The notes beneath the pieces are model-generated. The model did no database searches. It saw nothing but the letters and a program-made list of their open reading frames with translations, and was not told where the DNA came from. The position numbers and the translations under genes are program-made. A stretch of 21,218 nt of DNA, from IMG/VR virus record IMGVR_UViG_2547132270_000005, positions 1 through 21,218 of that record, one strand, 5' to 3'. Shown in pieces: positions 41-19,710 of this stretch; position 1 is the first letter of the stretch; each line of letters begins with the position of its first letter. The DNA is from a virus. Its lineage: Duplodnaviria; Heunggongvirae; Uroviricota; Caudoviricetes.

Positions 41-403
41 GCATTTGAAACAAGCCTTATTGTATTGCGGCACTGGCGTATTTTTTATTACGTGGGAGCA
101 GGTTGTTTTGAAAAAGCATTCTGTTCTCTGGCTATGATTTGAGGCCGGGTGTAGCCTCAGTGCTGATTTTTTTACGGTAGCAGAATGGTGCATTATCGAT
201 GGAGATTTTGTATTTCCTGGCAGGGTCGGTGATGCATCATTCTGGTGTTGTAAATCGCACCATAGAGGCGCTCCTCAGTGCGAGGGTGGTTTAAAGAGTC
301 GGTTTAGCGGGAAACCACAGTATCCATACAGCACGGAATACTTCGGGAGGCACCCGACGCCTCGGTTTAATAACAATTAAAAAATTCATCCCTTGCATTG
401 ACC

Positions 404-430
404 AACCGCCATATCTGGCGGTTTTTTTTA
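404..430 (+). terminator. Rho-independent terminator-like hairpin (CCGCCA-tatc-TGGCGG) followed by a T8 run
   Basis: Seen directly: 6-bp GC-rich stem at 406-411/416-421, then TTTTTTTT at 422-429. Oriented for + strand transcription; the opposite strand lacks a downstream U-tract. Confidence 0.5.
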
Positions 431-806
431 TTCCTTTCTCAGGACAAAAAAAGACACGAGCATCCAGGAATACTCGTGGGACAACGTCCTTTAGATAGCA
501 ATTTGCGAGAGGGTGAAAAAATGGCGCGGCTGTCGGATTAAAGCCGCGGGACAAAGTCCATGAAGAATAATAAGTATCAGCCTCCTACAGGAGACGAGTT
601 GATATTACTAAGCTTTAAAAATGGTTTAAATCCTCAGATTAACCTTAATTTCAGGTAAGTCTTATTTCATTTCTTCGCGCCACGCCCGGCGCACATCAAA
701 AACCACAGAGCCTTTCAGGGGTGAGCTTACGGGATGGTCAGTGTGACTTTCTCTGTGGGCTGGTCACCCCCGGGCGGAGGCTCACCCACTAAAAGGAAAA
801 GTCACG

Positions 807-1232
807 ATGTTTGGTATTTTCAAAAAGAAAACCCGCAAGGCCATTACCGAAGTGAAGAAGATGGAGAACCGCGATGCGGTGGAGGCGACCGTCTGGGGTG
901 CGTATTCCATCGCATACGCTGACGACACCTGTGACGCGAAAGAAATCGCAGTACTGGAGAAAACCATTGCAGCACTTCCTGCCTTTGCGCCGTTCTCCGG
1001 CGAGATTGCACAAATGAGTGCAAATATCCGCGCCCGTTATGAAGCGTCGCCGCGCTCTGCCAATGCTGAAGCCCTTCGTCAGCTGGCTGATGTTGCCGGT
1101 ACTGATGATGCAGTTAATGTACTGTGCCTGTGTCTGGATATCGCTGACCAGGATGGCATTGGTCCGGATGAAGAAGCACAGCTTAAGAAAATTGCTCAGG
1201 CGCTTCAGCTACCGCTGGAGCAGTACCTGTGA
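807..1232 (+). CDS. TerB-like (tellurite-resistance TerB / DjlA N-terminal fold) small protein, 141 aa
   Basis: ORF with RBS AAGGAAAAG 6-8 nt upstream of the ATG. The C-terminal segment LDIADQDGIGPDEEAQLKKIAQALQLPLEQY and the upstream helix pattern resemble the TerB acidic ADG/DEE signature. Family assignment is by eye only. Confidence 0.6.
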   Translation: MFGIFKKKTRKAITEVKKMENRDAVEATVWGAYSIAYADDTCDAKEIAVLEKTIAALPAFAPFSGEIAQMSANIRARYEASPRSANAEALRQLADVAGTDDAVNVLCLCLDIADQDGIGPDEEAQLKKIAQALQLPLEQYL

Positions 1233-1381
1233 AAAGTGCGCGCCTTGTACTGGCTGCCATCCTGCTGTTTCTGGTAGTGGCGGTGGATTTCACCGGACGG
1301 CTGATGTCGGTGCTGGCAGATGGTGTGCTGGTGGCGATGGCGCTGGTCGTGCTCCGGCCTTTACTGCGCAAATCTGAATAA
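1229..1381 (+). CDS. Small hydrophobic membrane peptide, 50 aa (MKSARLVLAAILLFLVVAVDFTGRLMSVLADGVLVAMALVVLRPLLRKSE)
   Basis: GTG start overlaps the TerB-like stop (GTGA). It is below the ORF track length cutoff. Two hydrophobic stretches, and a strong terminator follows. No RBS is visible other than coupling. Confidence 0.4.
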   Translation: MKSARLVLAAILLFLVVAVDFTGRLMSVLADGVLVAMALVVLRPLLRKSE

Positions 1382-1432
1382 CACCACACAAAAGGCATCT
1401 GCGGGTGCCTTTGACGGGGTGTTGTTTTTTTA

Positions 1433-1456
1433 CGGGCCGCTGGTGGCCCTTTTTTA
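1433..1456 (+). terminator. Rho-independent terminator (GGGCC-gctggt-GGCCC plus TTTTTT)
   Basis: Seen directly; a second hairpin (AAAGGCA...TGCCTTT, 1391-1413) with a T-run lies just upstream. It separates the TerB-like cassette from the lysis genes. Confidence 0.65.
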
Positions 1457-1474
1457 TTTACAGGAGAAAAAAGT

Positions 1475-1867
1475 ATGTCTGAACCCTTATCCGGTTCCGG
1501 TACGGCTGCGGCGCTCGGCGGGGCGACGGTGTACGGGCTGTTTACCGGAACGGATTTCGGGATTGTGTTTGGTGCGTTCGCCGGGGCGTTGTTTGTGGCA
1601 ACGATGCCGCAGCAGCTTTCAGCCTGGCGTGTGGCGGCGCATTTTCTGGTGTCGTTCATTGTTGGCGTGCTGGGAGCGCGTGTGCTGTCAGCCTGGATAG
1701 CGGCAAAAACAGGTTATGACGGTACATCGGCAGATGCGCTGTGCGCGGTGCTTGTCGCGGTAGTGTCGGTAAAGATTCTGTCGTTCATCCACCAGCAGGA
1801 TATCGCATCACTGGTGTCCGGTCTGTTCTCCCGCCTGCGGGGCGGAGGAGGTGGCAATGTTAAGTAA
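1475..1867 (+). CDS. Putative holin-like membrane protein (130 aa, multiple predicted transmembrane segments)
   Basis: Strong RBS (AGGAG) before the ATG at 1475. Gly/Ala-rich hydrophobic segments; sits immediately upstream of the endolysin gene. Holin call is by position and hydrophobicity, not motif. Confidence 0.55.
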   Translation: MSEPLSGSGTAAALGGATVYGLFTGTDFGIVFGAFAGALFVATMPQQLSAWRVAAHFLVSFIVGVLGARVLSAWIAAKTGYDGTSADALCAVLVAVVSVKILSFIHQQDIASLVSGLFSRLRGGGGGNVK

Positions 1868-2135
1868 CCTTCCCGACTTGCTGAATGTGGCGTTATGCAC
1901 GGTTATTGTGCTGACGCTCTTTTTTTATCGTCGCCGTGATTCCAGACATAAACCGCTGATGTCATGGCTGGCCTGGCTGCTGATGCTGCTTTATGCCTTT
2001 GCACCACTCAGCTATCTGTGCGGTCGCCCGTTAGCGGCGAACTGGCTGGCGGTGGGGCTTAATCTGCTGTTCTGCGTGTTGGTGATTCGCGCACGTGGGA
2101 ACGTTTCAAAAATCTTTGTATTACGAAGGCGCTGA
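1857..2135 (+). CDS. Second lysis-cassette membrane protein (about 92 aa; holin or antiholin-like)
   Basis: RBS GGAGGAGG precedes the ATG at 1857 (track ORF begins at 1851). Three hydrophobic stretches. The stop lies 2 nt before the endolysin start. Confidence 0.5.
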   Translation: MLSNLPDLLNVALCTVIVLTLFFYRRRDSRHKPLMSWLAWLLMLLYAFAPLSYLCGRPLAANWLAVGLNLLFCVLVIRARGNVSKIFVLRRR

Positions 2136-3325: not shown

Positions 3326-4114
3326 ATGAGCGAGAAATTGAAGATCGTCTATCGCCCTTTACAAGAACTGTCTCCGTATGCACACAACGCCAGAACACAC
3401 AGCCCTGAGCAGGTGGCACAACTGGTAGAAAGCATTAAGCAATTCGGCTGGACTAATCCGGTGCTGATTGATGAAAAGGGCGAAATTATTGCGGGTCACG
3501 GTCGCGTTATGGCGGCTGAAGTGCTCAAAATGGATTCCATTCCGGTCATCGTTCTGTCTGGTCTGACGGATGATCAGAAAAAGGCGTACCGCCTGGCAGA
3601 TAATCGCCTGCCGATGAATGCTGGCTGGGATGAAGAGCTGTTACGGATGGAGCTGTCGGACCTAATCAATGCTGATTTTGATGTCTCCCTGACAGGCTTC
3701 AGCCCGACAGAAATTGATGAACTGTTGACGGATGTTTTGCCCGGTACAGGAAATGAGGAGGAGCCGTATACGACGAAAATTGATACGCCTGTTTATGAGC
3801 CGTCGGGCGGTAAACCGGATATCAGTGAACTGTACGACGATACGAAAACTCAGAAGTTGATCAGCCGGATACGTTCGGCGTCCCTTGATCCTGATATTGA
3901 GAAATTCCTCCTGTGTGCGGCAGAACGTCACACGGTGTTTAATTTCAGCAGAATTGCGGACTATTACGCTCACGCCCCTGCTGAAATTCAGTGCCTTTTC
4001 GAGGAGTCGGCGCTGGTGATCATTGATTATCAGCAGGCTATTGAAAATGGATTTGTCCGGATGACGCAGCGCATGGTGGAGATCATGCATGGCGGGGAGG
4101 AGGAATATGCGTGA
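3326..4114 (+). CDS. ParB-like (ParB/Srx fold) nuclease-domain protein, 262 aa
   Basis: The N-terminal roughly 100 aa (YRPLQELSPYAHNARTHSPEQVAQLVESIKQFGWTNPVLIDEKGEIIAGHGRVMAA...) fits the ParB N-terminal domain pattern, including the GxGR-type motif. The C-terminal half is unassigned. Confidence 0.7.
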   Translation: MSEKLKIVYRPLQELSPYAHNARTHSPEQVAQLVESIKQFGWTNPVLIDEKGEIIAGHGRVMAAEVLKMDSIPVIVLSGLTDDQKKAYRLADNRLPMNAGWDEELLRMELSDLINADFDVSLTGFSPTEIDELLTDVLPGTGNEEEPYTTKIDTPVYEPSGGKPDISELYDDTKTQKLISRIRSASLDPDIEKFLLCAAERHTVFNFSRIADYYAHAPAEIQCLFEESALVIIDYQQAIENGFVRMTQRMVEIMHGGEEEYA

Positions 4115-12885: not shown

Positions 12886-13356
12886 ATGAAGCTCTACATT
12901 GCTAACTGCTCACGTCAGCCGCACACGTTCAACTACAAACTCCCCGAAAAAACGCAGTCGTTCGGTGTGACAATTCCGTCCGGACGTCAGCATATGATCG
13001 AAAATCAGTCCGATATTATCGACCACATCATCCGACAGCATGAGCCTTACGGATTCCAGCGTTGTGACAAGGTGGACAAGAATTTTTCCGGTATCTGCTA
13101 TTCCATCGATAAACCTGTGAGCGTCGGTCGCATTGAGGATTGCGCGGAGCAGAAAACGGAAAATCTGGAATCCATGTCAGAGGAAATTCTCGCGGCCAGC
13201 GCCGTATCGCTGAATAACGCAGTGGATCAGGCGGTGATTCAGAGCGGCGAAAAACCTCAACCGGGCGGTATTGAGATGGAAATCACCGGAGAAGCGGTTA
13301 ACACCGAACAGGAAAATCCGCCCAGCACAAAGCGAAATATTAAGGTTAAAAAATAA
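12886..13356 (+). CDS. Hypothetical protein (156 aa) with an acidic, low-complexity C-terminal tail
   Basis: ATG at 12886 (track ORF opens at a TTG at 12871, inside the terminator T-run). Weak RBS. No family recognised. The stop overlaps the next gene start (TAATG). Confidence 0.5.
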   Translation: MKLYIANCSRQPHTFNYKLPEKTQSFGVTIPSGRQHMIENQSDIIDHIIRQHEPYGFQRCDKVDKNFSGICYSIDKPVSVGRIEDCAEQKTENLESMSEEILAASAVSLNNAVDQAVIQSGEKPQPGGIEMEITGEAVNTEQENPPSTKRNIKVKK

Positions 13357-13796
13357 TGACCCAGCGTCCGTCACTGGAGGGGTTTATTCGCTTCGTTCGT
13401 GATGACATGAAAGTACCGGTTCACGCCATTGCTGACGATGATCCGACGCTGGAATGTTGCTTTCAGTCTGCGATGGAGCTAATCCCTCACGATCAGGGGC
13501 TGGAGCGTTTACCCATCATCTATGTGCGAACGGTTTATAACGCTGCCGCCTCATTCCTCCTGAATTTCGCCCCAGGATCGTGGTTTGCCGACCTGAGAAA
13601 AAAACTCAACCTTGGGAAGCTGGCTACCGGGCTTGTCAGCGCGGCAGCAGACCAGGGAACATCGGGCTCAATCACTATCAGCGACGCGCTGAGCAATCTG
13701 TCTTTGCTTGATTTGCAGATGTTGCAGGATCCGTATGGACGGCAGGTTGTTGCGGTGCTGATGCAGATGGGAACGGTATGGGGGTACACGCCATGA
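13356..13796 (+). CDS. Putative head-tail connector / head completion protein (146 aa)
   Basis: Translationally coupled to flanking genes; position between the capsid and tail modules. Confidence 0.45.
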   Translation: MTQRPSLEGFIRFVRDDMKVPVHAIADDDPTLECCFQSAMELIPHDQGLERLPIIYVRTVYNAAASFLLNFAPGSWFADLRKKLNLGKLATGLVSAAADQGTSGSITISDALSNLSLLDLQMLQDPYGRQVVAVLMQMGTVWGYTP

Positions 13797-14233: not shown

Positions 14234-15164
14234 GGAATTAGCCGAACAGCACAGTTCGCAGCTCTCATCCGTTCTTAAATCCGCAGTTGAAACCATCTCG
14301 TCAGACCAGGAAATCACGTTCAGGCTCTATGTCCGGCAGGTTCTGCCGCTGGATGGCTTTGTCTATTGGGTTAATGCGGAAATCATCAGTTGCGATGAAC
14401 TGTGTCGCCTGAATATTGAGTCACCAACCAGTCTGAAAATCAAAGGCAGCCTGCATCGTCAGGTTATTGCGATTCAGGACGAGTCTGTCTCGAAGGATGT
14501 GAACAACATTATTTTCACGCCTGTCCAGCAGGTTGATGATTTTAATGTAGAAAATCCCGATGCGATCTATCTCGGTGAGTACGGCGGCGTTCAGTTCGCT
14601 TTTTCACGAATGGAGAGCCGTTATCAGCAGTCGGGTATTTTTCATTATCGCGGCATGGCGATTTTACCAACTATGCGTTCTCAGATTATCGACTGCGAGG
14701 AGGATATCAGCGACGAGCAGATCATCTCCAACAGCATTCCGATCTGGCTGCAAATGAAAGATGCCGCGACCGTGTATCCGTCTTACCTGGTACCTCAGAA
14801 CCTTCGTCCTCCGTATATCGCGGTGGATGTTCGCAACAGCATTCCGTTGCAGGTGGCTCCCGTTGTTTTCGGTGGCGAGCGATTCCAGCTCGTCCAGGAT
14901 TCGGTTCGCCTGACGCTTTACGGATTCAGCAACAAAATGGCGCTGGATCTTGTCGACTCGGTGGTGAACAGGGCGCTGGAGGAGGAAAGGTTTGGTGTAA
15001 CTAATATTCCGGTGGTTCAGGACGCAAAGTCGGGACAGGTTGAAATCAACGCTCTGGCGAAGAAAAAAATTGTCGATTTTGACGTGAATTACTACCAGAG
15101 CACCGCCCGGGAAATATCCCGGCAGTTGATTGAAAAAGTTATTTGTAAATATGAGGTTAAATAA
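14220..15164 (+). CDS. Hypothetical virion morphogenesis protein (314 aa)
   Basis: Overlaps the upstream gene by 14 nt; stop overlaps the sheath gene start (TAATG). No recognisable motif. Confidence 0.5.
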   Translation: MPSLEELAEQHSSQLSSVLKSAVETISSDQEITFRLYVRQVLPLDGFVYWVNAEIISCDELCRLNIESPTSLKIKGSLHRQVIAIQDESVSKDVNNIIFTPVQQVDDFNVENPDAIYLGEYGGVQFAFSRMESRYQQSGIFHYRGMAILPTMRSQIIDCEEDISDEQIISNSIPIWLQMKDAATVYPSYLVPQNLRPPYIAVDVRNSIPLQVAPVVFGGERFQLVQDSVRLTLYGFSNKMALDLVDSVVNRALEEERFGVTNIPVVQDAKSGQVEINALAKKKIVDFDVNYYQSTAREISRQLIEKVICKYEVK

Positions 15165-16501
15165 TGGGATTTAATATCGTCACGGTGAATGTGTCCCAGA
15201 CCATCGGGGCTATACCCTCGAATTTGCAGCAGATGTCTGCGGTTCTCTCGTTTGGATCCACGACTCATGAGCCGGGGAAGCCTGTATTACTCACCAGCAA
15301 TCAGGATATTAACGATCTGGTTAAAAATCCGATTGCTGCGTTGTCGGCGGCTGCCGCAGGAAAGTCTGCGGCAAACGTCACCGTTACGATGACGCTTCCG
15401 GAAGGGAGCAACATCCGACGCGAAAACAGTTCTGAGGTGAAAATTGTTGTTTCCGGGTGTTCGCCCGACGCGTGGAATGGCGAATATACTGCTACCGTCA
15501 CGGATGAAAAAACACTGACCTGGACGATTGCTGATTCTCAGCTTTCCGGTTCGCCAGTGACACTGGGGCAGTTTTCCATTGTCGGCAGTGAAAATCTGGT
15601 GACGGCAGTAAACACGTTTTTTGCTCAGGGAAATTCAGTTGGGATTTACCTGCTGGAGCTGGGAGTACAGAAAGGCGGGGTCAGTAAGGAAATCGCTGCA
15701 CTGAAAGCTTATATGGAAGATCCGCTCCTGCGGTTTTATGCGTATCTGGTGCCGCAGCCGTGGGATGGTGACGCAGAATTTATCAGTCTGGCAAAACTCC
15801 ACACCGCCAACGAAGCGATGCAGTATTTCTTCGTGTTGACAAAAACGCCGGACGACACGAATTACGTTTCGCCTTATGCCGGTATTAAGTCGGTTATTGC
15901 AACGGCGGATGATACGTACCCGGCGACAAACGCGGCAGCAGCCGTAATGTGGAACTATGTTTCCGCATCACCTTCAGAAATCAACAAGGTGCCGCCGATG
16001 GCATTTCGCTATCTGCAGGCGGTAAACGCCCACAAGGGCAAAAATTCCATTCTGGCTACGATGACGAAGCAGAATATTAACTACGTCGACACGGGGGCTG
16101 AGGGGGGAATTTCCAACACGATTCTGGTGAAAGGCGTTACCAGTGACGGTAACGATATGACGTACTGGTATTCCGTTGACTGGGTGCAGATTAATGTCGA
16201 TATGCAGCTCGCCAACACGGTGATCAACGGCAGCAATAACCCAATTAACCCGCTTTACTACAACCAGGACGGGATCGACCGTCTACAGCAGGTCGCACAG
16301 GCGGTGTTCAATACGGGCGTATCTTACGGCCTGGTCAACGGTCAGCCTGTCGTCGATGCAGTGCCTTTCCGTCAGTATATCAACACTAATCCGAATGATT
16401 ACGGTATCGGGCGTTATGCAGGCCTTTCGGCCTCCTATACGCCGATGCGTGGATTTGTCGAAATCGTTTTTAACATCAATGTGACAATGCAGCTTTCGTG
16501 A
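15164..16501 (+). CDS. Tail sheath-like protein (445 aa)
   Basis: Large protein immediately upstream of a small tube-like protein, a chaperone pair and the tape measure gene, the standard contractile-tail order. Called from position and size. Confidence 0.55.
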   Translation: MGFNIVTVNVSQTIGAIPSNLQQMSAVLSFGSTTHEPGKPVLLTSNQDINDLVKNPIAALSAAAAGKSAANVTVTMTLPEGSNIRRENSSEVKIVVSGCSPDAWNGEYTATVTDEKTLTWTIADSQLSGSPVTLGQFSIVGSENLVTAVNTFFAQGNSVGIYLLELGVQKGGVSKEIAALKAYMEDPLLRFYAYLVPQPWDGDAEFISLAKLHTANEAMQYFFVLTKTPDDTNYVSPYAGIKSVIATADDTYPATNAAAAVMWNYVSASPSEINKVPPMAFRYLQAVNAHKGKNSILATMTKQNINYVDTGAEGGISNTILVKGVTSDGNDMTYWYSVDWVQINVDMQLANTVINGSNNPINPLYYNQDGIDRLQQVAQAVFNTGVSYGLVNGQPVVDAVPFRQYINTNPNDYGIGRYAGLSASYTPMRGFVEIVFNINVTMQLS

Positions 16502-16512
16502 GGGACTGAACC

Positions 16513-16956
16513 GTGCCTAATCCAATGATCCCCGTTGGCACCCTTAACCGGGTTCGCGCCAGCGTTAAATTCACCTCTCATTCCGAACTGAATGTGTCCG
16601 CCTCATTTCTGGCAAAAGAAGGCGTCGAATTGTCCTTTCAGGGCAATATCACGGAGTTTTTACCCGCTATGACGGGAGCCGTGCAGTCGCCGCAGCCATA
16701 CATGATTTTACAGGCGCGTGTTCATCTTCTGCGTAGCCAGGCGCTGGGAAAACAATTCAAGGCGCAATGGGAAAAGAACGCCACGATCGGCGACGCAAAA
16801 GTGTATAGCGACAGCACGGTGTTCGGTGACTTCGATATCTATAACACGGCGATCACCAACGTGCAGGATATGACCTTCGCCGGGGGCGAGCCGGGAGTGG
16901 CCATCACCATTACCGGTACGTATTACATCAACTCTGAAATGTGGGAGCTGGTATGA
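16513..16956 (+). CDS. Tail tube-like protein (147 aa)
   Basis: GTG start with RBS GAGGGA 7 nt upstream. Size and position between the sheath and chaperone genes. Confidence 0.55.
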   Translation: MPNPMIPVGTLNRVRASVKFTSHSELNVSASFLAKEGVELSFQGNITEFLPAMTGAVQSPQPYMILQARVHLLRSQALGKQFKAQWEKNATIGDAKVYSDSTVFGDFDIYNTAITNVQDMTFAGGEPGVAITITGTYYINSEMWELV

Positions 16957-17570
16957 AAATCTCCCGAAATCTGAATCTGATTATTCCTGTCCGGACAGAA
17001 AAGGGTAACGGCTGGATCCATGCCACGCCGATCAGCAAAGAGGTGTTTAAAGAGCACTTCTTCATCCTGAGTAAAACCTTTTCCGCCATTTTTTCAGAAG
17101 GCCTTGGCGTCGTTGCGGGTCCGCGTATTGCTTTTTTGATGCTGGAGCGGATCTCGCGTGATTCCGGTATCTGGGACGATGATAAGGGAGTTCGTAATAC
17201 GCTGGTGAACGAAATAATTCGCCTGGCAAACCTTGTTTATCCGGTGGAGGGCAAAGGTTACGACACAATCCCTCTTGATATGGCGCTGGAGCGTGAAATC
17301 GTTGAGCTGGATGATGTTGCGGGTGAACTCGTTTTTTTTACATGCGTCTCGTCGATAAATTCACCGGAGCAGGCGAAGGGGACTATGGATGTGGTCAATG
17401 GAATATGGAGCACTCAATGCTCGTCATTGAATCTTACGGAATGGATCGCTTCATTGCCGACATTGAAATCAGCCGCCAGTTCTGGCACGACGGCGAACAC
17501 GTCATCAGCGACATCCTCGACTACTCAGCCGGAGCCGGATTCAGAGACATCTGCGCAGATTCCGGTCTGA
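16953..17570 (+). CDS. Tail assembly chaperone (zero-frame product), with a Ser/Thr-rich low-complexity C-terminus
   Basis: ATG at 16953 overlaps the tube gene stop (ATGA); the track ORF opens at 16941. Directly upstream of the tape measure gene and overlapped by a -1 frame ORF. Confidence 0.55.
   Translation: MKISRNLNLIIPVRTEKGNGWIHATPISKEVFKEHFFILSKTFSAIFSEGLGVVAGPRIAFLMLERISRDSGIWDDDKGVRNTLVNEIIRLANLVYPVEGKGYDTIPLDMALEREIVELDDVAGELVFFTCVSSINSPEQAKGTMDVVNGIWSTQCSSLNLTEWIASLPTLKSAASSGTTANTSSATSSTTQPEPDSETSAQIPV
17333..17339 (+). other. Candidate -1 programmed ribosomal frameshift slippery heptamer (T TTT TTT)
   Basis: Zero-frame codons are GTT TTT TTT ACA. A -1 slip gives TTT TTT TAC ATG..., which runs without a stop to 17635. 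Confidence 0.45.
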
Positions 17571-17635
17571 ATGTAAAAACAGCAGCTCAGTTTCGTGAGC
17601 TGCTCAAATTCAAAAATCCCGCAGGAGTATTGTGA
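17342..17635 (+). CDS. -1 frame extension ORF of the tail assembly chaperone (would yield a fusion of roughly 230 aa)
   Basis: ORF in the -1 frame relative to the chaperone; it overlaps the chaperone 3' region and ends at the tape measure start (GTGA overlap). This mirrors the conserved chaperone-frameshift arrangement upstream of tape measure genes. Confidence 0.45.
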   Translation: MRLVDKFTGAGEGDYGCGQWNMEHSMLVIESYGMDRFIADIEISRQFWHDGEHVISDILDYSAGAGFRDICADSGLNVKTAAQFRELLKFKNPAGVL

Positions 17636-19710
17636 TGGCTGGTAACCAGATGCCAGTTCTGACGCTGGATGTTAATGAAGAACACCTCAGGCGGCTGGAG
17701 GCGATATTTGAAAAGTATCGCAACGGGCTGATGATTGGCCCTGCCGGAACGCCGCTTAAAATACCTTCAAATACAAGTCAGGGAGGTGGCGCCCGGCAGA
17801 CAACCACAGGCGGAGAAGCCAATCAGGCTCCCAGGAAACCGTCTTCACCTGCGCCAGTTCCGGCTGCGTCCAGTGATGGACGTTTAAGGGATGAAAAAGG
17901 GCGCTTTGTTGGCAGCGGGAAAACACCTGATTCGCTGGTGAGCAACTATAAAGGTCGCGGCGAAACGATGTTTGATAAGTACCTCAGCGGGCTGGGGAAA
18001 AACGCCAAACAGACGCTGAAAACTTACAAGCAGATCAATTCTACGCTACGGACGACCACTTCGAGATTAAACAACCTGTTTAAAACCACCGTATCGTGGG
18101 GGACAAAACTTGCGGTTATGGGCGTTGCCGGGCCGTTTGGCTTTGGCATGATGGCCCGTAGTGTTGTAGAAAAACAGAAAAATGCAGATGAGCTTGTGGC
18201 AACGCCGGGAGAATTAAAGGCGGCAGAAAGCACTTATTCGCCTTATTTTTCCGGTGTTGGTAATTTGCTCAATACGCTGGCAGCCGCGCAAAATGATCAA
18301 GAACATCCCGCCCGTGTAGGTCTACTCAATCTGGGGATTAACCCTGATAAAAACGCGACGGAAAACCTTCCGACATTACTGGAAAGAGTCGCTGCTCTTG
18401 CAAAAGAGTATGAAGGAACCGGATTAACCCAGAGCATGTTAAGGGGACGCAGTCTTGGATGGGTAAATTTTGGTATTGCTAACCAGTTAGTCAAATATCA
18501 GGACAAAATACCTGAACTCAATAAAGAGTTTTTATCGCGAGCTTCTCAGAATGACTCGTTGCTCACCTCTGGACATACAAGCCAGTATCAGAATCTTACC
18601 AGCAACTTAGAAAATAACTGGGATCAACTTACCAGCGGATTTCAGGGGGCAATGTCGGGTAACTCTGTACAGCTAATCAGAATATCTAATGGTGTAAAGA
18701 ATGCTGGTCTAAATTTCCTTAACGGTGAGAACTTTAAAAGAATTTTGACTGATGTTGAAACAGGTCTGGATAAACTTGGTAAGTATGTAAATGGCCCGGA
18801 TTTTAATAACGACCTGAATAATTTTGCCGAAAATGTTGCAAAGGTTGTTAAGGCACTTAGCGGGTTTGTTGGTTTTGCTGTTGAACATCCCTGGCTTTTT
18901 GGAGCCGCAGTACTTGCTGGACCATCGAGAGTTGGCGCTGTGGCAGCCACAACGACCGGAGTTGCCGCCCGTGTTGTAGGTGGAAGTTTTCTTGGGGCTA
19001 CAGCCGGAACAGTAGCTGGATTGGCTATTCCTACAAATGACACACCTACCACCAGTGAGGAAATGAAAGGGCTGGATGGGCGTTTCAACTTTGATTATTT
19101 TAACGAAGTGCAGGAGTGGCAAAAAAACAATCCGGGCAAGGTCTGGCCTGGAGGATTGCAGGGGTTTTCAAATCAAGTAGACAGATCTGCATATTTATCC
19201 AGAGGGATCAGGAATAACAATCCCGGAAACCTTAATTTCGCAGGACAAAAAGGGGCGACCTTGGAATCGGGGCCAAATGCTCGTTTTGCCAGCTTCCCGA
19301 CGATGCTCGAAGGCATTGCTGCGTTAGATCGACAGGTCATGCTTTATCTGAAACGGGGCAAAAATACGATTGATCAGATTATTGATATTTATGCCCCTTC
19401 ATCTGATGGAAATAACACATCGTCCTATAAAAGCTATCTCTCTCGGTACACCGGTTTAGGTGTTAAGGAGAAAATCGATGGTTCTAATTTTGATGTTATG
19501 AAAAAACTAATTCAGGGCATTATTAACCATGAAAATGGGGCCGCCGCTCGTGCTGTAAGTGGCGATGATGTGATGCGGGCGCTGGCAATGAACCGGGGGA
19601 ACGTATATTCACCAAATAATGCTTCTCAGGTAATCAGGCTCGAAGTTCAACAAAAACCAGGTTCCGACATACTGGCACAACTCGCCGGAATGCAACAAAT
19701 ACCGGGGTAA
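17635..19710 (+). CDS. Tail tape measure protein (about 691 aa) with a Gly/Ala-rich hydrophobic segment and a distinct C-terminal globular region
   Basis: RBS AGGAG 7 nt before the ATG at 17635 (the track begins at a GTG at 17632). Long, helical and low-complexity, with a glycine-rich hydrophobic stretch (GFVGFAVEHPWLFGAAVLAGP...GATAGTVAGLAIP). Position after the chaperone frameshift pair. Confidence 0.7.
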   Translation: MAGNQMPVLTLDVNEEHLRRLEAIFEKYRNGLMIGPAGTPLKIPSNTSQGGGARQTTTGGEANQAPRKPSSPAPVPAASSDGRLRDEKGRFVGSGKTPDSLVSNYKGRGETMFDKYLSGLGKNAKQTLKTYKQINSTLRTTTSRLNNLFKTTVSWGTKLAVMGVAGPFGFGMMARSVVEKQKNADELVATPGELKAAESTYSPYFSGVGNLLNTLAAAQNDQEHPARVGLLNLGINPDKNATENLPTLLERVAALAKEYEGTGLTQSMLRGRSLGWVNFGIANQLVKYQDKIPELNKEFLSRASQNDSLLTSGHTSQYQNLTSNLENNWDQLTSGFQGAMSGNSVQLIRISNGVKNAGLNFLNGENFKRILTDVETGLDKLGKYVNGPDFNNDLNNFAENVAKVVKALSGFVGFAVEHPWLFGAAVLAGPSRVGAVAATTTGVAARVVGGSFLGATAGTVAGLAIPTNDTPTTSEEMKGLDGRFNFDYFNEVQEWQKNNPGKVWPGGLQGFSNQVDRSAYLSRGIRNNNPGNLNFAGQKGATLESGPNARFASFPTMLEGIAALDRQVMLYLKRGKNTIDQIIDIYAPSSDGNNTSSYKSYLSRYTGLGVKEKIDGSNFDVMKKLIQGIINHENGAAARAVSGDDVMRALAMNRGNVYSPNNASQVIRLEVQQKPGSDILAQLAGMQQIPG

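What the first reader, a model, noticed from the sequence alone, without database searches (positions are those of the whole stretch)
17333..17635. Candidate -1 programmed frameshift in the tail chaperone gene with an unusually long overlap
A U-UUU-UUU heptamer lies about 130 codons into the chaperone ORF. The -1 frame stays open from there to the tape measure start, while the zero frame continues another 77 codons of Ser/Thr-rich low-complexity sequence. Chaperone frameshift sites usually sit near the 3' end of the upstream ORF, so either the zero-frame tail is a disordered extension or the frameshifted product is the main folded form. When I hand-translated bases 17581-17760, my reading ran one base out of register with the ORF track, so the sequence of the chaperone/tape-measure junction should be re-checked.
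Basis: partly seen in the sequence, partly recalled or inferred. Interest (0 to 1): 0.45.

Follow-up and report, generated by a model that had tools for sequence, protein, structure and literature searches.

The report
Hidden frameshift in phage tail chaperone
A run of U's in the middle of a prophage tail gene very probably makes a fraction of ribosomes slip back one base, so that one gene yields two proteins with the same front half and different back halves, both written in the same 231 bases; the trick is known from other phages, but here it sits unusually far from the gene's end and nobody has annotated it.

Summary
T_TTT_TTT lies at 17333-17339 in the correct X_XXY_YYZ register, at codons 128-129 of a 205-codon ORF between a sheath/tube pair and the tape-measure gene. 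The -1 frame opens two codons upstream and runs 98 codons to a UGA that overlaps the tape-measure AUG.

- **Conservation of the site:** 107 of 108 non-identical homologues keep T_TTT_TTT and one has T_TTT_TTC. This holds down to about 30% protein identity and in 62-66% GC alphaproteobacterial prophages.
- **Both arms are real proteins:**
  - The zero-frame tail carries near-invariant residues, and AlphaFold places its first ~40 residues inside the folded domain (pLDDT 96-98). The slip site sits inside a helix. Only the last ~35 residues are disordered and Ser/Thr-rich.
  - The -1 arm is a conserved ~75-residue helical domain.
- **Dual coding:** -1-frame third codon positions are suppressed exactly where the zero-frame product is folded.

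The best reading is a lambda G/GT-type -1 programmed frameshift with an internal slip site and a truly dual-coding overlap, 231 nt against about 26 nt typically. The chaperone role rests on gene order only. No sequence family or solved fold matches. This is a new variant of a known kind.

The parts
15164..16501 (+). Tail sheath gene (context; marks a contractile tail).
   Evidence: phrog_205 'tail sheath', E = 4.7e-55.
16513..16956 (+). 147-aa ORF directly after the sheath, presumed tail tube. Its stop overlaps the G start (ATGA).
   Evidence: Position only. It matches phrog_6566 (unknown function) and has no Pfam or NCBIfam hit.
16953..17570 (+). 'G': the zero-frame product, 205 aa. Residues 1-170 are folded and 171-205 are disordered and Ser/Thr-rich, ending in ...QIPV.
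   Evidence: phrog_11810 over its full length. Of 626 clusters found at 50% identity, the best 150 are listed and most of those are 186-200 aa. AlphaFold pLDDT is 96-98 to residue ~170.
16953..17339 (+). N-terminal 129 codons shared by both products.
   Evidence: pN/pS 0.20 in the zero frame. F128 and F129 are the most conserved columns among 111 distant homologues.
17324..17326 (+). TGA in the -1 frame. It closes the -1 frame two codons before the slip site, so any shift must occur at or after 17327.
   Evidence: The upstream -1 stop lies 2-12 codons before the site in most homologues.
17333..17339 (+). Slippery heptamer T_TTT_TTT (U_UUU_UUU), at zero-frame codons 128-129.
   Evidence: Register shown. 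It is present in 107 of 108 non-identical homologues, and one has T_TTT_TTC. The T run is 8 long in 86 of them and 7 long in 22.
17339..17635 (+). 'T': the -1-frame extension, 98 codons plus TGA. The fusion product GT is 129 + 98 = 227 aa.
   Evidence: phrog_14324. The domain is conserved (E.YG..F.ADI..R.FWRDG....L[DW]...GF....EFRQR). pN/pS is 0.31 past the G stop. AlphaFold gives a helical domain at pLDDT ~90 after a disordered linker at 137-150.
17340..17465 (+). Dual-coding zone A. G codons 130-171 are folded (end of a helix, helix 138-152, strand 155-157, helix 161-167). The same bases in the -1 frame encode the variable linker and first helix of T.
   Evidence: pN/pS is 0.61 in the zero frame and 0.78 in the -1 frame. 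-1-frame third-position entropy is 1.17 bits here, against 1.79 past the G stop. G residues S167 and L168 are at least 90% conserved.
17466..17567 (+). Dual-coding zone B. G codons 172-205 form a disordered Ser/Thr-rich tail. The same bases in the -1 frame encode the conserved core of T.
   Evidence: pN/pS is 0.91 in the zero frame and 0.42 in the -1 frame. pLDDT is ~60. A C-terminal x-[IVLFA]-P-x motif occurs in 58 of 111 distant G proteins.
17623..17627 (+). AGGAG Shine-Dalgarno for the tape-measure gene, lying inside the end of the T frame.
   Evidence: Sequence read directly. It lies 7 nt before ATG 17635.
17635..19710 (+). Tape-measure gene (691 aa) with a C-terminal lytic transglycosylase region. 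Its ATG overlaps the T stop (TGATG).
   Evidence: phrog_7694 and phrog_2276 'tail length tape measure protein'. Relatives annotate it as lytic transglycosylase or SLT domain protein.

Best explanation
The gene between the tube and the tape measure of this contractile-tail prophage very probably makes two proteins by -1 programmed ribosomal frameshifting.

**Proposed mechanism**
1. Ribosomes start at ATG 16953.
2. At codons 128-129 (UUU UUU), with tRNA-Phe in both the P and A sites, a minority slip back one base on U_UUU_UUU (17333-17339). This step is inferred from the canonical tandem-slippage model.
3. No conserved downstream RNA structure or upstream SD-like element was found, so efficiency is probably a few percent. 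This is inferred.

**The two products**
- *G (205 aa), from ribosomes that do not slip.* Residues 130-170 complete the folded domain, and the slip site lies inside helix 119-135. Residues 171-205 are a disordered Ser/Thr-rich tail with a conserved C-terminal x-[IV]-P-x end.
- *GT (227 aa), from ribosomes that slip.* It has the same first 129 residues, then a variable linker and a ~75-residue helical T domain. It terminates at a UGA that overlaps the tape-measure AUG.

The 231 nt from 17340 to 17570 therefore code in two frames. The frames share the burden: where G is folded, T is mostly linker, and where T is folded, G is mostly disordered. There is a ~20-codon zone where both are constrained.

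**Function**
By analogy with lambda G/GT and P2 E/E+E', the shared N-domain would coat the tape-measure protein and the T domain would recruit tube subunits. This rests on gene order only. Unlike lambda, GT here is not 'all of G plus T'. It is the G core with its C-terminal module swapped.
For: **Shown by the sequence**
- Register, frames and junctions.

**Shown by comparison**
- Among the IMG/VR loci with 67-100% N-domain identity, 70 carry T_TTT_TTT in register. L064 has T_TTT_TTC, and L073 is a degraded T9 copy. Apart from the T9 copies L023 and L073, the G ORF is 205 codons (210 in L056), and the -1 arm is 94-101 codons ending TGATG or TAATG at the tape-measure start.
- In 80 more distant loci the heptamer is present in 76, with 53-80 zero-frame codons after it and 96-122 -1 codons.
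- It is also present in Klebsiella phage Chronis, Pantoea phage PdC23 and three alphaproteobacterial MAGs of 53-66% GC.
- Overall 107 of 108 non-identical homologues keep it. TTT is only 36% of Phe codons elsewhere in these genes.
- In 111 G proteins at 31-43% identity, F129 is the only invariant column. F128 and the post-slip residues S167 and L168 are at least 90% conserved.

**Constraint in both frames**
- pN/pS values are given under 'parts'.
- -1-frame third-position entropy is 1.17 bits where G is folded, 1.56 where G is disordered and 1.79 past the G stop. Some third positions are more conserved than the amino acid they help encode.

**Predicted structures**
- G has pLDDT 96-98 through residue ~170, with helix 119-135 spanning the slip site.
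- GT has pTM 0.79 and a helical T domain at pLDDT ~90.

**No independent start for T**
- The Met after the slip site is confined to the E. coli clade. The residue before it, Tyr, is invariant.

**Context**
- Sheath, tube and tape-measure gene order.
Against: - There is no experimental evidence for the fusion protein.
- No Pfam, NCBIfam or PDB sequence match ties G or T to any known chaperone family.
- BFVD matches to proteins named 'tail assembly chaperone' are all weak, with E from 0.05 to more than 1.
- No conserved stimulatory RNA structure was found.
- The slip site is far from the zero-frame stop, unlike textbook cases.
- U8 could also support some transcriptional slippage, which would yield the identical protein.
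- That the zero frame stays open is by itself weak evidence. Synonymous shuffles of the T frame keep it open with a median probability of 0.34.
Confidence: 0.8

Rival explanations
1. The same GT protein is made mainly by transcriptional slippage. RNA polymerase adds one extra U on the T8 tract, giving a U9 mRNA that reads straight through into the T frame.
For: The tract is 8 T long in 86 of 108 non-identical homologues. A T9 version of the gene encodes exactly the predicted fusion (L023; P0001). The protein product would be indistinguishable from that of ribosomal slippage. No ribosomal stimulatory element was found.
Against: Twenty-two homologues have only T7, one has T7C, and two have T6 after a non-T base. 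From general knowledge, efficient slippage by bacterial RNA polymerase usually needs runs of 9 or more. What is conserved is the in-register heptamer, not a longer run.
Confidence: 0.1
2. The 97-codon ORF 17342-17635 is an ordinary separate gene started at its own ATG 17342. Some annotations (phrog_14324) and a few database entries treat it that way.
For: An ATG is present at 17342 in the window and its close relatives. 97-aa proteins of this kind exist in databases (P0127, P0272-P0278).
Against: No Shine-Dalgarno precedes it; the upstream bases are GAACTCGTTTTTTTTAC. The Met is not conserved outside the E. coli clade, where the position holds L, C, V, G, A or S. The preceding Tyr, which lies upstream of that ATG, is invariant. 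The -1 frame opens just before the heptamer in most lineages.
Confidence: 0.03
3. There is no recoding. Only the 205-aa zero-frame protein is made, and the open -1 frame and T run are by-products of the protein sequence (Phe-Phe) and of composition.
For: All public annotations call only the 205-aa ORF. In-frame slippery heptamers are frequent by chance, 22 in 5044 codons.
Against: The -1 arm evolves as a protein. Its pN/pS is 0.31 beyond the G stop, and a conserved motif set persists at 20-30% identity. AlphaFold folds it confidently. It always ends at the tape-measure start. TTT TTT preceded by T is kept even in 62-66% GC genomes, although TTC is the preferred Phe codon.
Confidence: 0.04
4. 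It is an assembly error or a pseudogene. The true gene would be a single ORF broken by a homopolymer miscount.
For: Homopolymers are error-prone. Rare 226-227-aa 'fused' database entries exist (P0001-P0004).
Against: Only one of the four close fused entries is joined at the T run; the other three are joined at other positions, which points to scattered indels. T8 or T7 with the two-frame layout recurs in about 150 independent loci, in 92 complete E. coli genomes and in cultured phages. The zero-frame tail is itself conserved and folded.
Confidence: 0.01

Closest known systems
Lambda G/GT tail assembly chaperones (-1 frameshift at G_GGA_AAG; Levin et al. 1993; Xu et al. 2004, 2013, 2014, as summarised in PMC5009743)
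   Same: The gene sits immediately upstream of the tape-measure gene. There is a conserved in-register heptamer, a -1 arm without its own start, and two products that share an N-terminal part. The expected low-level shift would set a fixed ratio between them.
   Different: - Lambda's site is 'near the 3' end of g', so GT contains essentially all of G. Here the site is at residue 129 of 205, inside a predicted helix, so about 40 folded residues of G are absent from GT.
- The overlap is 231 nt and is constrained in both frames.
- There is no detectable sequence similarity, and fold similarity is not established.
- The host phage has a contractile tail.
P2 E / E+E' (myovirus tail chaperone frameshift on a T-rich heptamer, T_TTT_TTG from my own knowledge; cited as B141 in PMC5009743)
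   Same: It belongs to a contractile-tail phage. The gene lies between tube and tape measure. The heptamer is U-rich and decoded by tRNA-Phe, and the shift is -1.
   Different: From my own knowledge, P2 E is about 91 aa with the slip close to its end. The proteins here are twice as long and unrelated in sequence, and the slip is internal with a long dual-coding overlap.
Annotated phage chaperone frameshifts in the SEA-PHAGES / PRFect training data (PMC10274946)
   Same: The same class of event and the same XXXYYY-type motif.
   Different: The mean distance from slip site to in-frame stop is 26 nt there. PRFect found almost none of the cases with a distance above 51 nt. Here the distance is 231 nt, which helps explain why the event is unannotated.
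Long overlapping-frame frameshift products in RNA viruses (e.g. influenza PA-X, alphavirus TF; reviewed in PMC5009743)
   Same: An internal slip site gives a product with a common N-terminus and an alternative C-terminal module. That module is encoded in a stretch that is also translated in the zero frame, and synonymous-site suppression is seen in the overlap.
   Different: Those are eukaryotic RNA viruses with unrelated proteins, and some use +1 shifts. This comparison concerns gene architecture only, not membership.

Membership tests
G/GT-type tail assembly chaperone pair made by -1 programmed frameshifting | The gene lies between the major tail (tube) gene and the tape-measure gene. | tested here: met
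   The order is sheath 15164-16501, 147-aa ORF, G/T, then tape measure 17635-19710. The same order is seen in Rac-SA53, pPE4, Chronis and PdC23.
G/GT-type tail assembly chaperone pair made by -1 programmed frameshifting | A slippery heptamer in X_XXY_YYZ register, conserved among relatives despite sequence divergence. | tested here: met
   T_TTT_TTT is present in 107 of 108 non-identical homologues and T_TTT_TTC in one. TTT is 36% of Phe codons elsewhere.
G/GT-type tail assembly chaperone pair made by -1 programmed frameshifting | The downstream ORF is in the -1 frame, has no start codon or ribosome-binding site of its own, and evolves as a protein. | tested here: met
   There is no SD, and the Met is not conserved while the preceding Tyr is invariant. 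pN/pS is 0.31. The AlphaFold T domain has pLDDT ~90.
G/GT-type tail assembly chaperone pair made by -1 programmed frameshifting | [quoted passage not shown] | tested here: not met
   There are 76 sense codons (231 nt with the stop) between site and stop, and 53-80 codons across the family. The site lies inside helix 119-135 of the predicted fold. The typical distance is 26 nt (PMC10274946), described as 'near the 3' end' (PMC5009743).
G/GT-type tail assembly chaperone pair made by -1 programmed frameshifting | Sequence or fold relationship to a recognised chaperone family. | tested here: inconclusive
G/GT-type tail assembly chaperone pair made by -1 programmed frameshifting | Both products are made at a fixed ratio, both are needed for tail assembly, and both are absent from virions. 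G binds the tape measure and T binds the tube protein. | not testable with these tools
   This needs proteomics, genetics and binding assays.
Programmed transcriptional slippage sites | A homopolymer long enough for efficient RNA polymerase slippage (usually 9 or more, from general knowledge), with conservation of run length rather than of reading register. | tested here: not met
   The run is 8 long in 86 non-identical homologues and 7 in 22. There are T7C and T6 variants.

The most novel reading that the evidence does not exclude
This would be a distinct class of tail chaperone in which the frameshift does not append a domain to a complete protein. Instead it switches between two alternative, separately selected C-terminal modules encoded in the same 231 nt.

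- One module is a folded cap plus a disordered tail ending in a conserved x-[IV]-P-x peptide (G).
- The other is a helical T domain (GT).
- The slip site lies inside an alpha-helix of a fold with no solved relative.

The class would be spread through a large, mostly unclassified myovirus and prophage lineage: at least 626 protein clusters at 50% identity, ranging from Enterobacteriaceae to Alphaproteobacteria. If so, G's own tail would have a partner and a role that lambda gpG lacks.
Probability: 0.45. Interest if true: 0.6.

Novelty: new variant of a known kind. Interest (0 to 1): 0.5.

Why it matters
1. **Annotation.** A whole family is affected: 92 of 5426 complete E. coli genomes, the phages Rac-SA53, Chronis, RothC/D and PdC23, and hundreds of metagenomic viruses. 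All carry an unannotated protein domain. The T domain drew only 18 hits among 5.8 billion predicted proteins, and the genes are labelled 'hypothetical'. Predictors that favour slip sites close to the stop will keep missing it.
2. **Recoding biology.** This is a clean bacterial-virus example of a long overlap that codes in both frames and is maintained over deep divergence. The two frames take turns being the constrained one, which makes it a useful test case for methods that detect overlapping genes.
3. **Tail assembly.** The frameshift product lacks part of the G fold, so the lambda picture of GT as G with an added T domain does not transfer directly. That gives a testable question about how chaperone, tape measure and tube interact in these contractile tails.

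Tried and rejected
- **Stimulatory RNA.** The single-sequence fold of 17340-17460 had a z-score of +0.66. The consensus fold of 20 homologues was -1.77 kcal/mol with 5 pairs. No upstream SD-like motif is conserved; the flanks vary.
- **'Zero frame open by chance' test.** With the T protein held fixed and its codons shuffled, the zero frame stays open as long as observed with a median probability of 0.34. I therefore dropped openness as an argument. I relied instead on amino-acid conservation, third-position suppression and the structure prediction.
- **Apparent longer matches.** A 69-85% coverage of the fusion query by 205-aa proteins looked like shifted slip sites. The alignment showed it was a BLAST artefact.
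- **Fused database entries.** Of the four close 226-227-aa entries (P0001-P0004), only one is joined at the T run; the other three are joined elsewhere. I treat them as indel errors, not evidence. More distant fused entries (P0125, P0128, P0131, P0214, P0129) are joined exactly at FF|Y. This is what a T-run miscount or variant would produce.
  - The genome scan found only 3 loci.
- **Literature.** Searches on these phages found no mention of a frameshift.

Full report
**1. What is in the sequence**

On the + strand a sheath gene (15164-16501; phrog_205 'tail sheath', E = 4.7e-55) is followed by three genes. The first is a 147-aa ORF (16513-16956). The second is a 205-codon ORF starting at ATG 16953, which shares ATGA with the preceding stop. 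The third is a 691-aa tape-measure gene with a lytic-transglycosylase C-terminus (ATG 17635-19710).

A T8 run occupies 17332-17339. In the zero frame the codons are GTT TTT TTT ACA, so T_TTT_TTT (17333-17339) is in the canonical X_XXY_YYZ register at codons 128-129.

The -1 frame has a TGA at 17324-17326. It then stays open for 98 codons to the TGA at 17633-17635, which overlaps the tape-measure ATG (TGATG). An AGGAG lies 7 nt upstream of that ATG.

The zero frame continues for 76 sense codons to its stop at 17568-17570. The predicted products are G (205 aa) and a fusion GT (129 + 98 = 227 aa).

Nothing is wrong with the junction, which recurs in homologues.

**2. Is it more than chance?**

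In-frame XXXYYYZ heptamers are common: 22 in 5044 codons of the structural ORFs. Only this one is followed by a long -1 ORF, 98 codons against 35 and 29 for the next longest. Comparison is what decides the matter.

- **Closer relatives.**
  - Among the IMG/VR loci with N-domains 67-100% identical, 70 carry T_TTT_TTT at the same codons. L064 has T_TTT_TTC, and L073 is a degraded T9 copy.
  - Apart from the T9 copies L023 and L073, the zero-frame ORF is 205 codons (210 in L056).
  - The -1 arm is 94-101 codons and ends TGATG or TAATG on the next gene.
- **Distant metagenomic loci.** Of 80 further loci, 76 have the heptamer, two have N_TTT_TTT and two are degenerate. There are 53-80 zero-frame codons after the site and 96-122 -1 codons.
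- **Cultured phages and MAGs.** Klebsiella phage Chronis and Pantoea phage PdC23 (32-34% identity) have the heptamer, as do three alphaproteobacterial MAGs of 53-66% GC.
- **Overall.** 107 of 108 non-identical homologues have T_TTT_TTT. The run is 8 long in 86 of them and 7 long in 22. TTT accounts for only 36% of Phe codons elsewhere in these genes.
- **Protein level.** In an alignment of 111 G proteins at 31-43% identity to the window, F129 is the only invariant column and F128 is at least 90% conserved.

**3. Both arms are real proteins**

*The -1 arm.*
- It has a conserved motif set (E.YG..F.ADI..R.FWRDG....L[DW]...GF....EFRQR) down to 20-30% identity.
- Its pN/pS is 0.31 beyond the G stop.
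- AlphaFold builds it as a helical domain at pLDDT ~90 after a disordered linker at 137-150. The overall model has pLDDT 84.6 and pTM 0.79, from a shallow alignment.
- It has no conserved start codon. The Met at 17342 is confined to the E. coli clade, while the Tyr before it is invariant.

*The zero-frame tail.* It is not junk.
- The listed distant G proteins are mostly 186-200 aa, with a median of 59 residues after Phe-Phe.
- They share the pattern LWG...TSL..TE[FWY]..SLPTST.
- S167 and L168 are at least 90% conserved.
- A C-terminal x-[IVLFA]-P-x ending occurs in 58 of 111.
- AlphaFold with that alignment gives pLDDT 96-98 through residue ~170. Helix 119-135 spans the slip site and is followed by helix 138-152, strand 155-157 and helix 161-167. 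Only residues 171-205 are disordered, at pLDDT ~60.
- Ser+Thr is 29% in residues 130-171 and 47% in 172-205.

**4. Dual coding**

pN/pS in the two frames across 42 unique E. coli-clade sequences:

| Region | Zero frame | -1 frame |
|---|---|---|
| N-domain | 0.20 | 2.0 (off-frame) |
| Overlap, G codons 130-171 | 0.61 | 0.78 |
| Overlap, G codons 172-205 | 0.91 | 0.42 |
| Beyond the G stop | 0.79 | 0.31 |

Third-position entropy falls from 1.08 bits in the N-domain to about 0.5 bits in both frames within the overlap.

Across 43 representatives below 75% identity, -1-frame third-position entropy is as follows:
- 1.17 bits where G is folded.
- 1.56 bits where G is disordered.
- 1.79 bits past the G stop.

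At T codons 157, 167 and 168 the third base (0.16-0.48 bits) is more conserved than the encoded amino acid. That is what selection on the other frame predicts. The two frames thus take turns, apart from a ~20-codon stretch where both are constrained.

One test was uninformative. With the T protein fixed and its codons shuffled, the zero frame stays open as long as observed with a median probability of 0.34.

**5. Mechanism**

The best-supported explanation is tandem -1 slippage of two tRNA-Phe on U_UUU_UUU, at low efficiency.

I found no conserved downstream structure. The single-sequence z-score was +0.66, and the consensus fold was -1.77 kcal/mol. No conserved upstream SD-like element was seen either.

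Transcriptional slippage on U8 would give the same protein and cannot be excluded as a contributor. The T7, T7C and T6 variants argue that the heptamer, not run length, is what is selected.

Independent initiation, a non-expressed -1 frame and an assembly artefact are each contradicted by the data above. Of the four close 226-227-aa fused entries, only one is joined at the T run; the other three are joined elsewhere, so I read them as stray indels. More distant fused entries are joined exactly at FF|Y, as a T-run miscount would produce.

**6. Comparison with what is known**

The arrangement works like lambda G/GT and P2 E/E+E'. The review literature places the lambda site 'near the 3' end' of g (PMC5009743). 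The mean slip-to-stop distance in annotated phage cases is 26 nt, and a current predictor fails above about 51 nt (PMC10274946). Here the distance is 231 nt and the site lies inside a helix of the folded domain. GT therefore lacks about 40 folded residues of G.

Membership of a known chaperone family is not established.
- There are no Pfam or NCBIfam hits.
- The matching PHROG families, 11810 and 14324, have unknown function.
- BFVD gives only weak similarities to proteins named tail assembly chaperone.

The chaperone role is therefore inferred from gene order and the recoding signature.

**7. Annotation status**

None of the annotations I examined records the frameshift. Rac-SA53, pPE4, Chronis and PdC23 call the gene 'hypothetical'. 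So does RefSeq in the listed records among the 92 of 5426 complete E. coli genomes that carry the element. A profile of the T domain finds only 18 proteins among 5.8 billion. Papers on these phages do not mention it.

**8. Verdict**

The event is a new variant of a known kind: a G/GT-type frameshift with an internal slip site and a long overlap that codes in both frames, in a large unannotated family. My confidence in the main explanation is 0.8, and I score interest at 0.5.

Noticed in passing
L023 (IMG/VR 2896595138_000001) at 3380-3388; L073; protein P0001 (seen on 6 contigs): A few assemblies carry T9 instead of T8, which puts G and T in one 227-codon frame so that only GT would be made. 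These could be homopolymer sequencing errors, or natural slip-length variants in decaying prophages.
   Followed up: partly
window 17340-17470, compared with protein P0024: P0024 is 100% identical to the window over the first 129 residues but clearly diverged straight after the slip site (TCVSSINTPEQTEQMMLAVSGMWNSR...). This suggests a recombination breakpoint at or near the heptamer, and mosaic exchange of the two-frame module.
   Followed up: no
L002 = PP818812.1, 'Actinobacillus phage vB_Apl-pPE4': A phage recorded as infecting Actinobacillus pleuropneumoniae is 94% identical in DNA over 1.2 kb to this window, which itself matches E. coli prophages at up to 98%. It shares gene order with Escherichia phage Rac-SA53. 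The host label may deserve a check.
   Followed up: no
window 17635-19710: The tape-measure protein carries a C-terminal lytic transglycosylase-like region (residues ~500-670; PHROG hits to endolysin and tail injection transglycosylase). It has no Pfam hit above threshold.
   Followed up: partly
window 16513-16956: The presumed tail tube protein matches no Pfam or NCBIfam model, only phrog_6566 (unknown function). Its identity rests on its position after the sheath gene.
   Followed up: no
window 13598-13604: An in-frame A_AAA_AAA heptamer lies in ORF 13356-13796, with a 35-codon open -1 frame after it. This is the second-longest such case in the structural module. The -1 frame closes before the next gene, so it is probably chance.
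   Followed up: no
window 160-1930: Four further T7-T8 runs (167, 422, 1425, 1920) cluster in the first 2 kb of the window, far from the tail genes. TTTTTTTA occurs 5 times in the window against 1.5 expected.
   Followed up: no
window 17340-17359 and homologues (alignment A7): The 20 nt just after the heptamer (ACATGYGTCTCGTCGATAAA) are almost invariant at the DNA level across the E. coli clade. Dual coding can explain this, but a role in modulating the frameshift is not excluded.
   Followed up: partly
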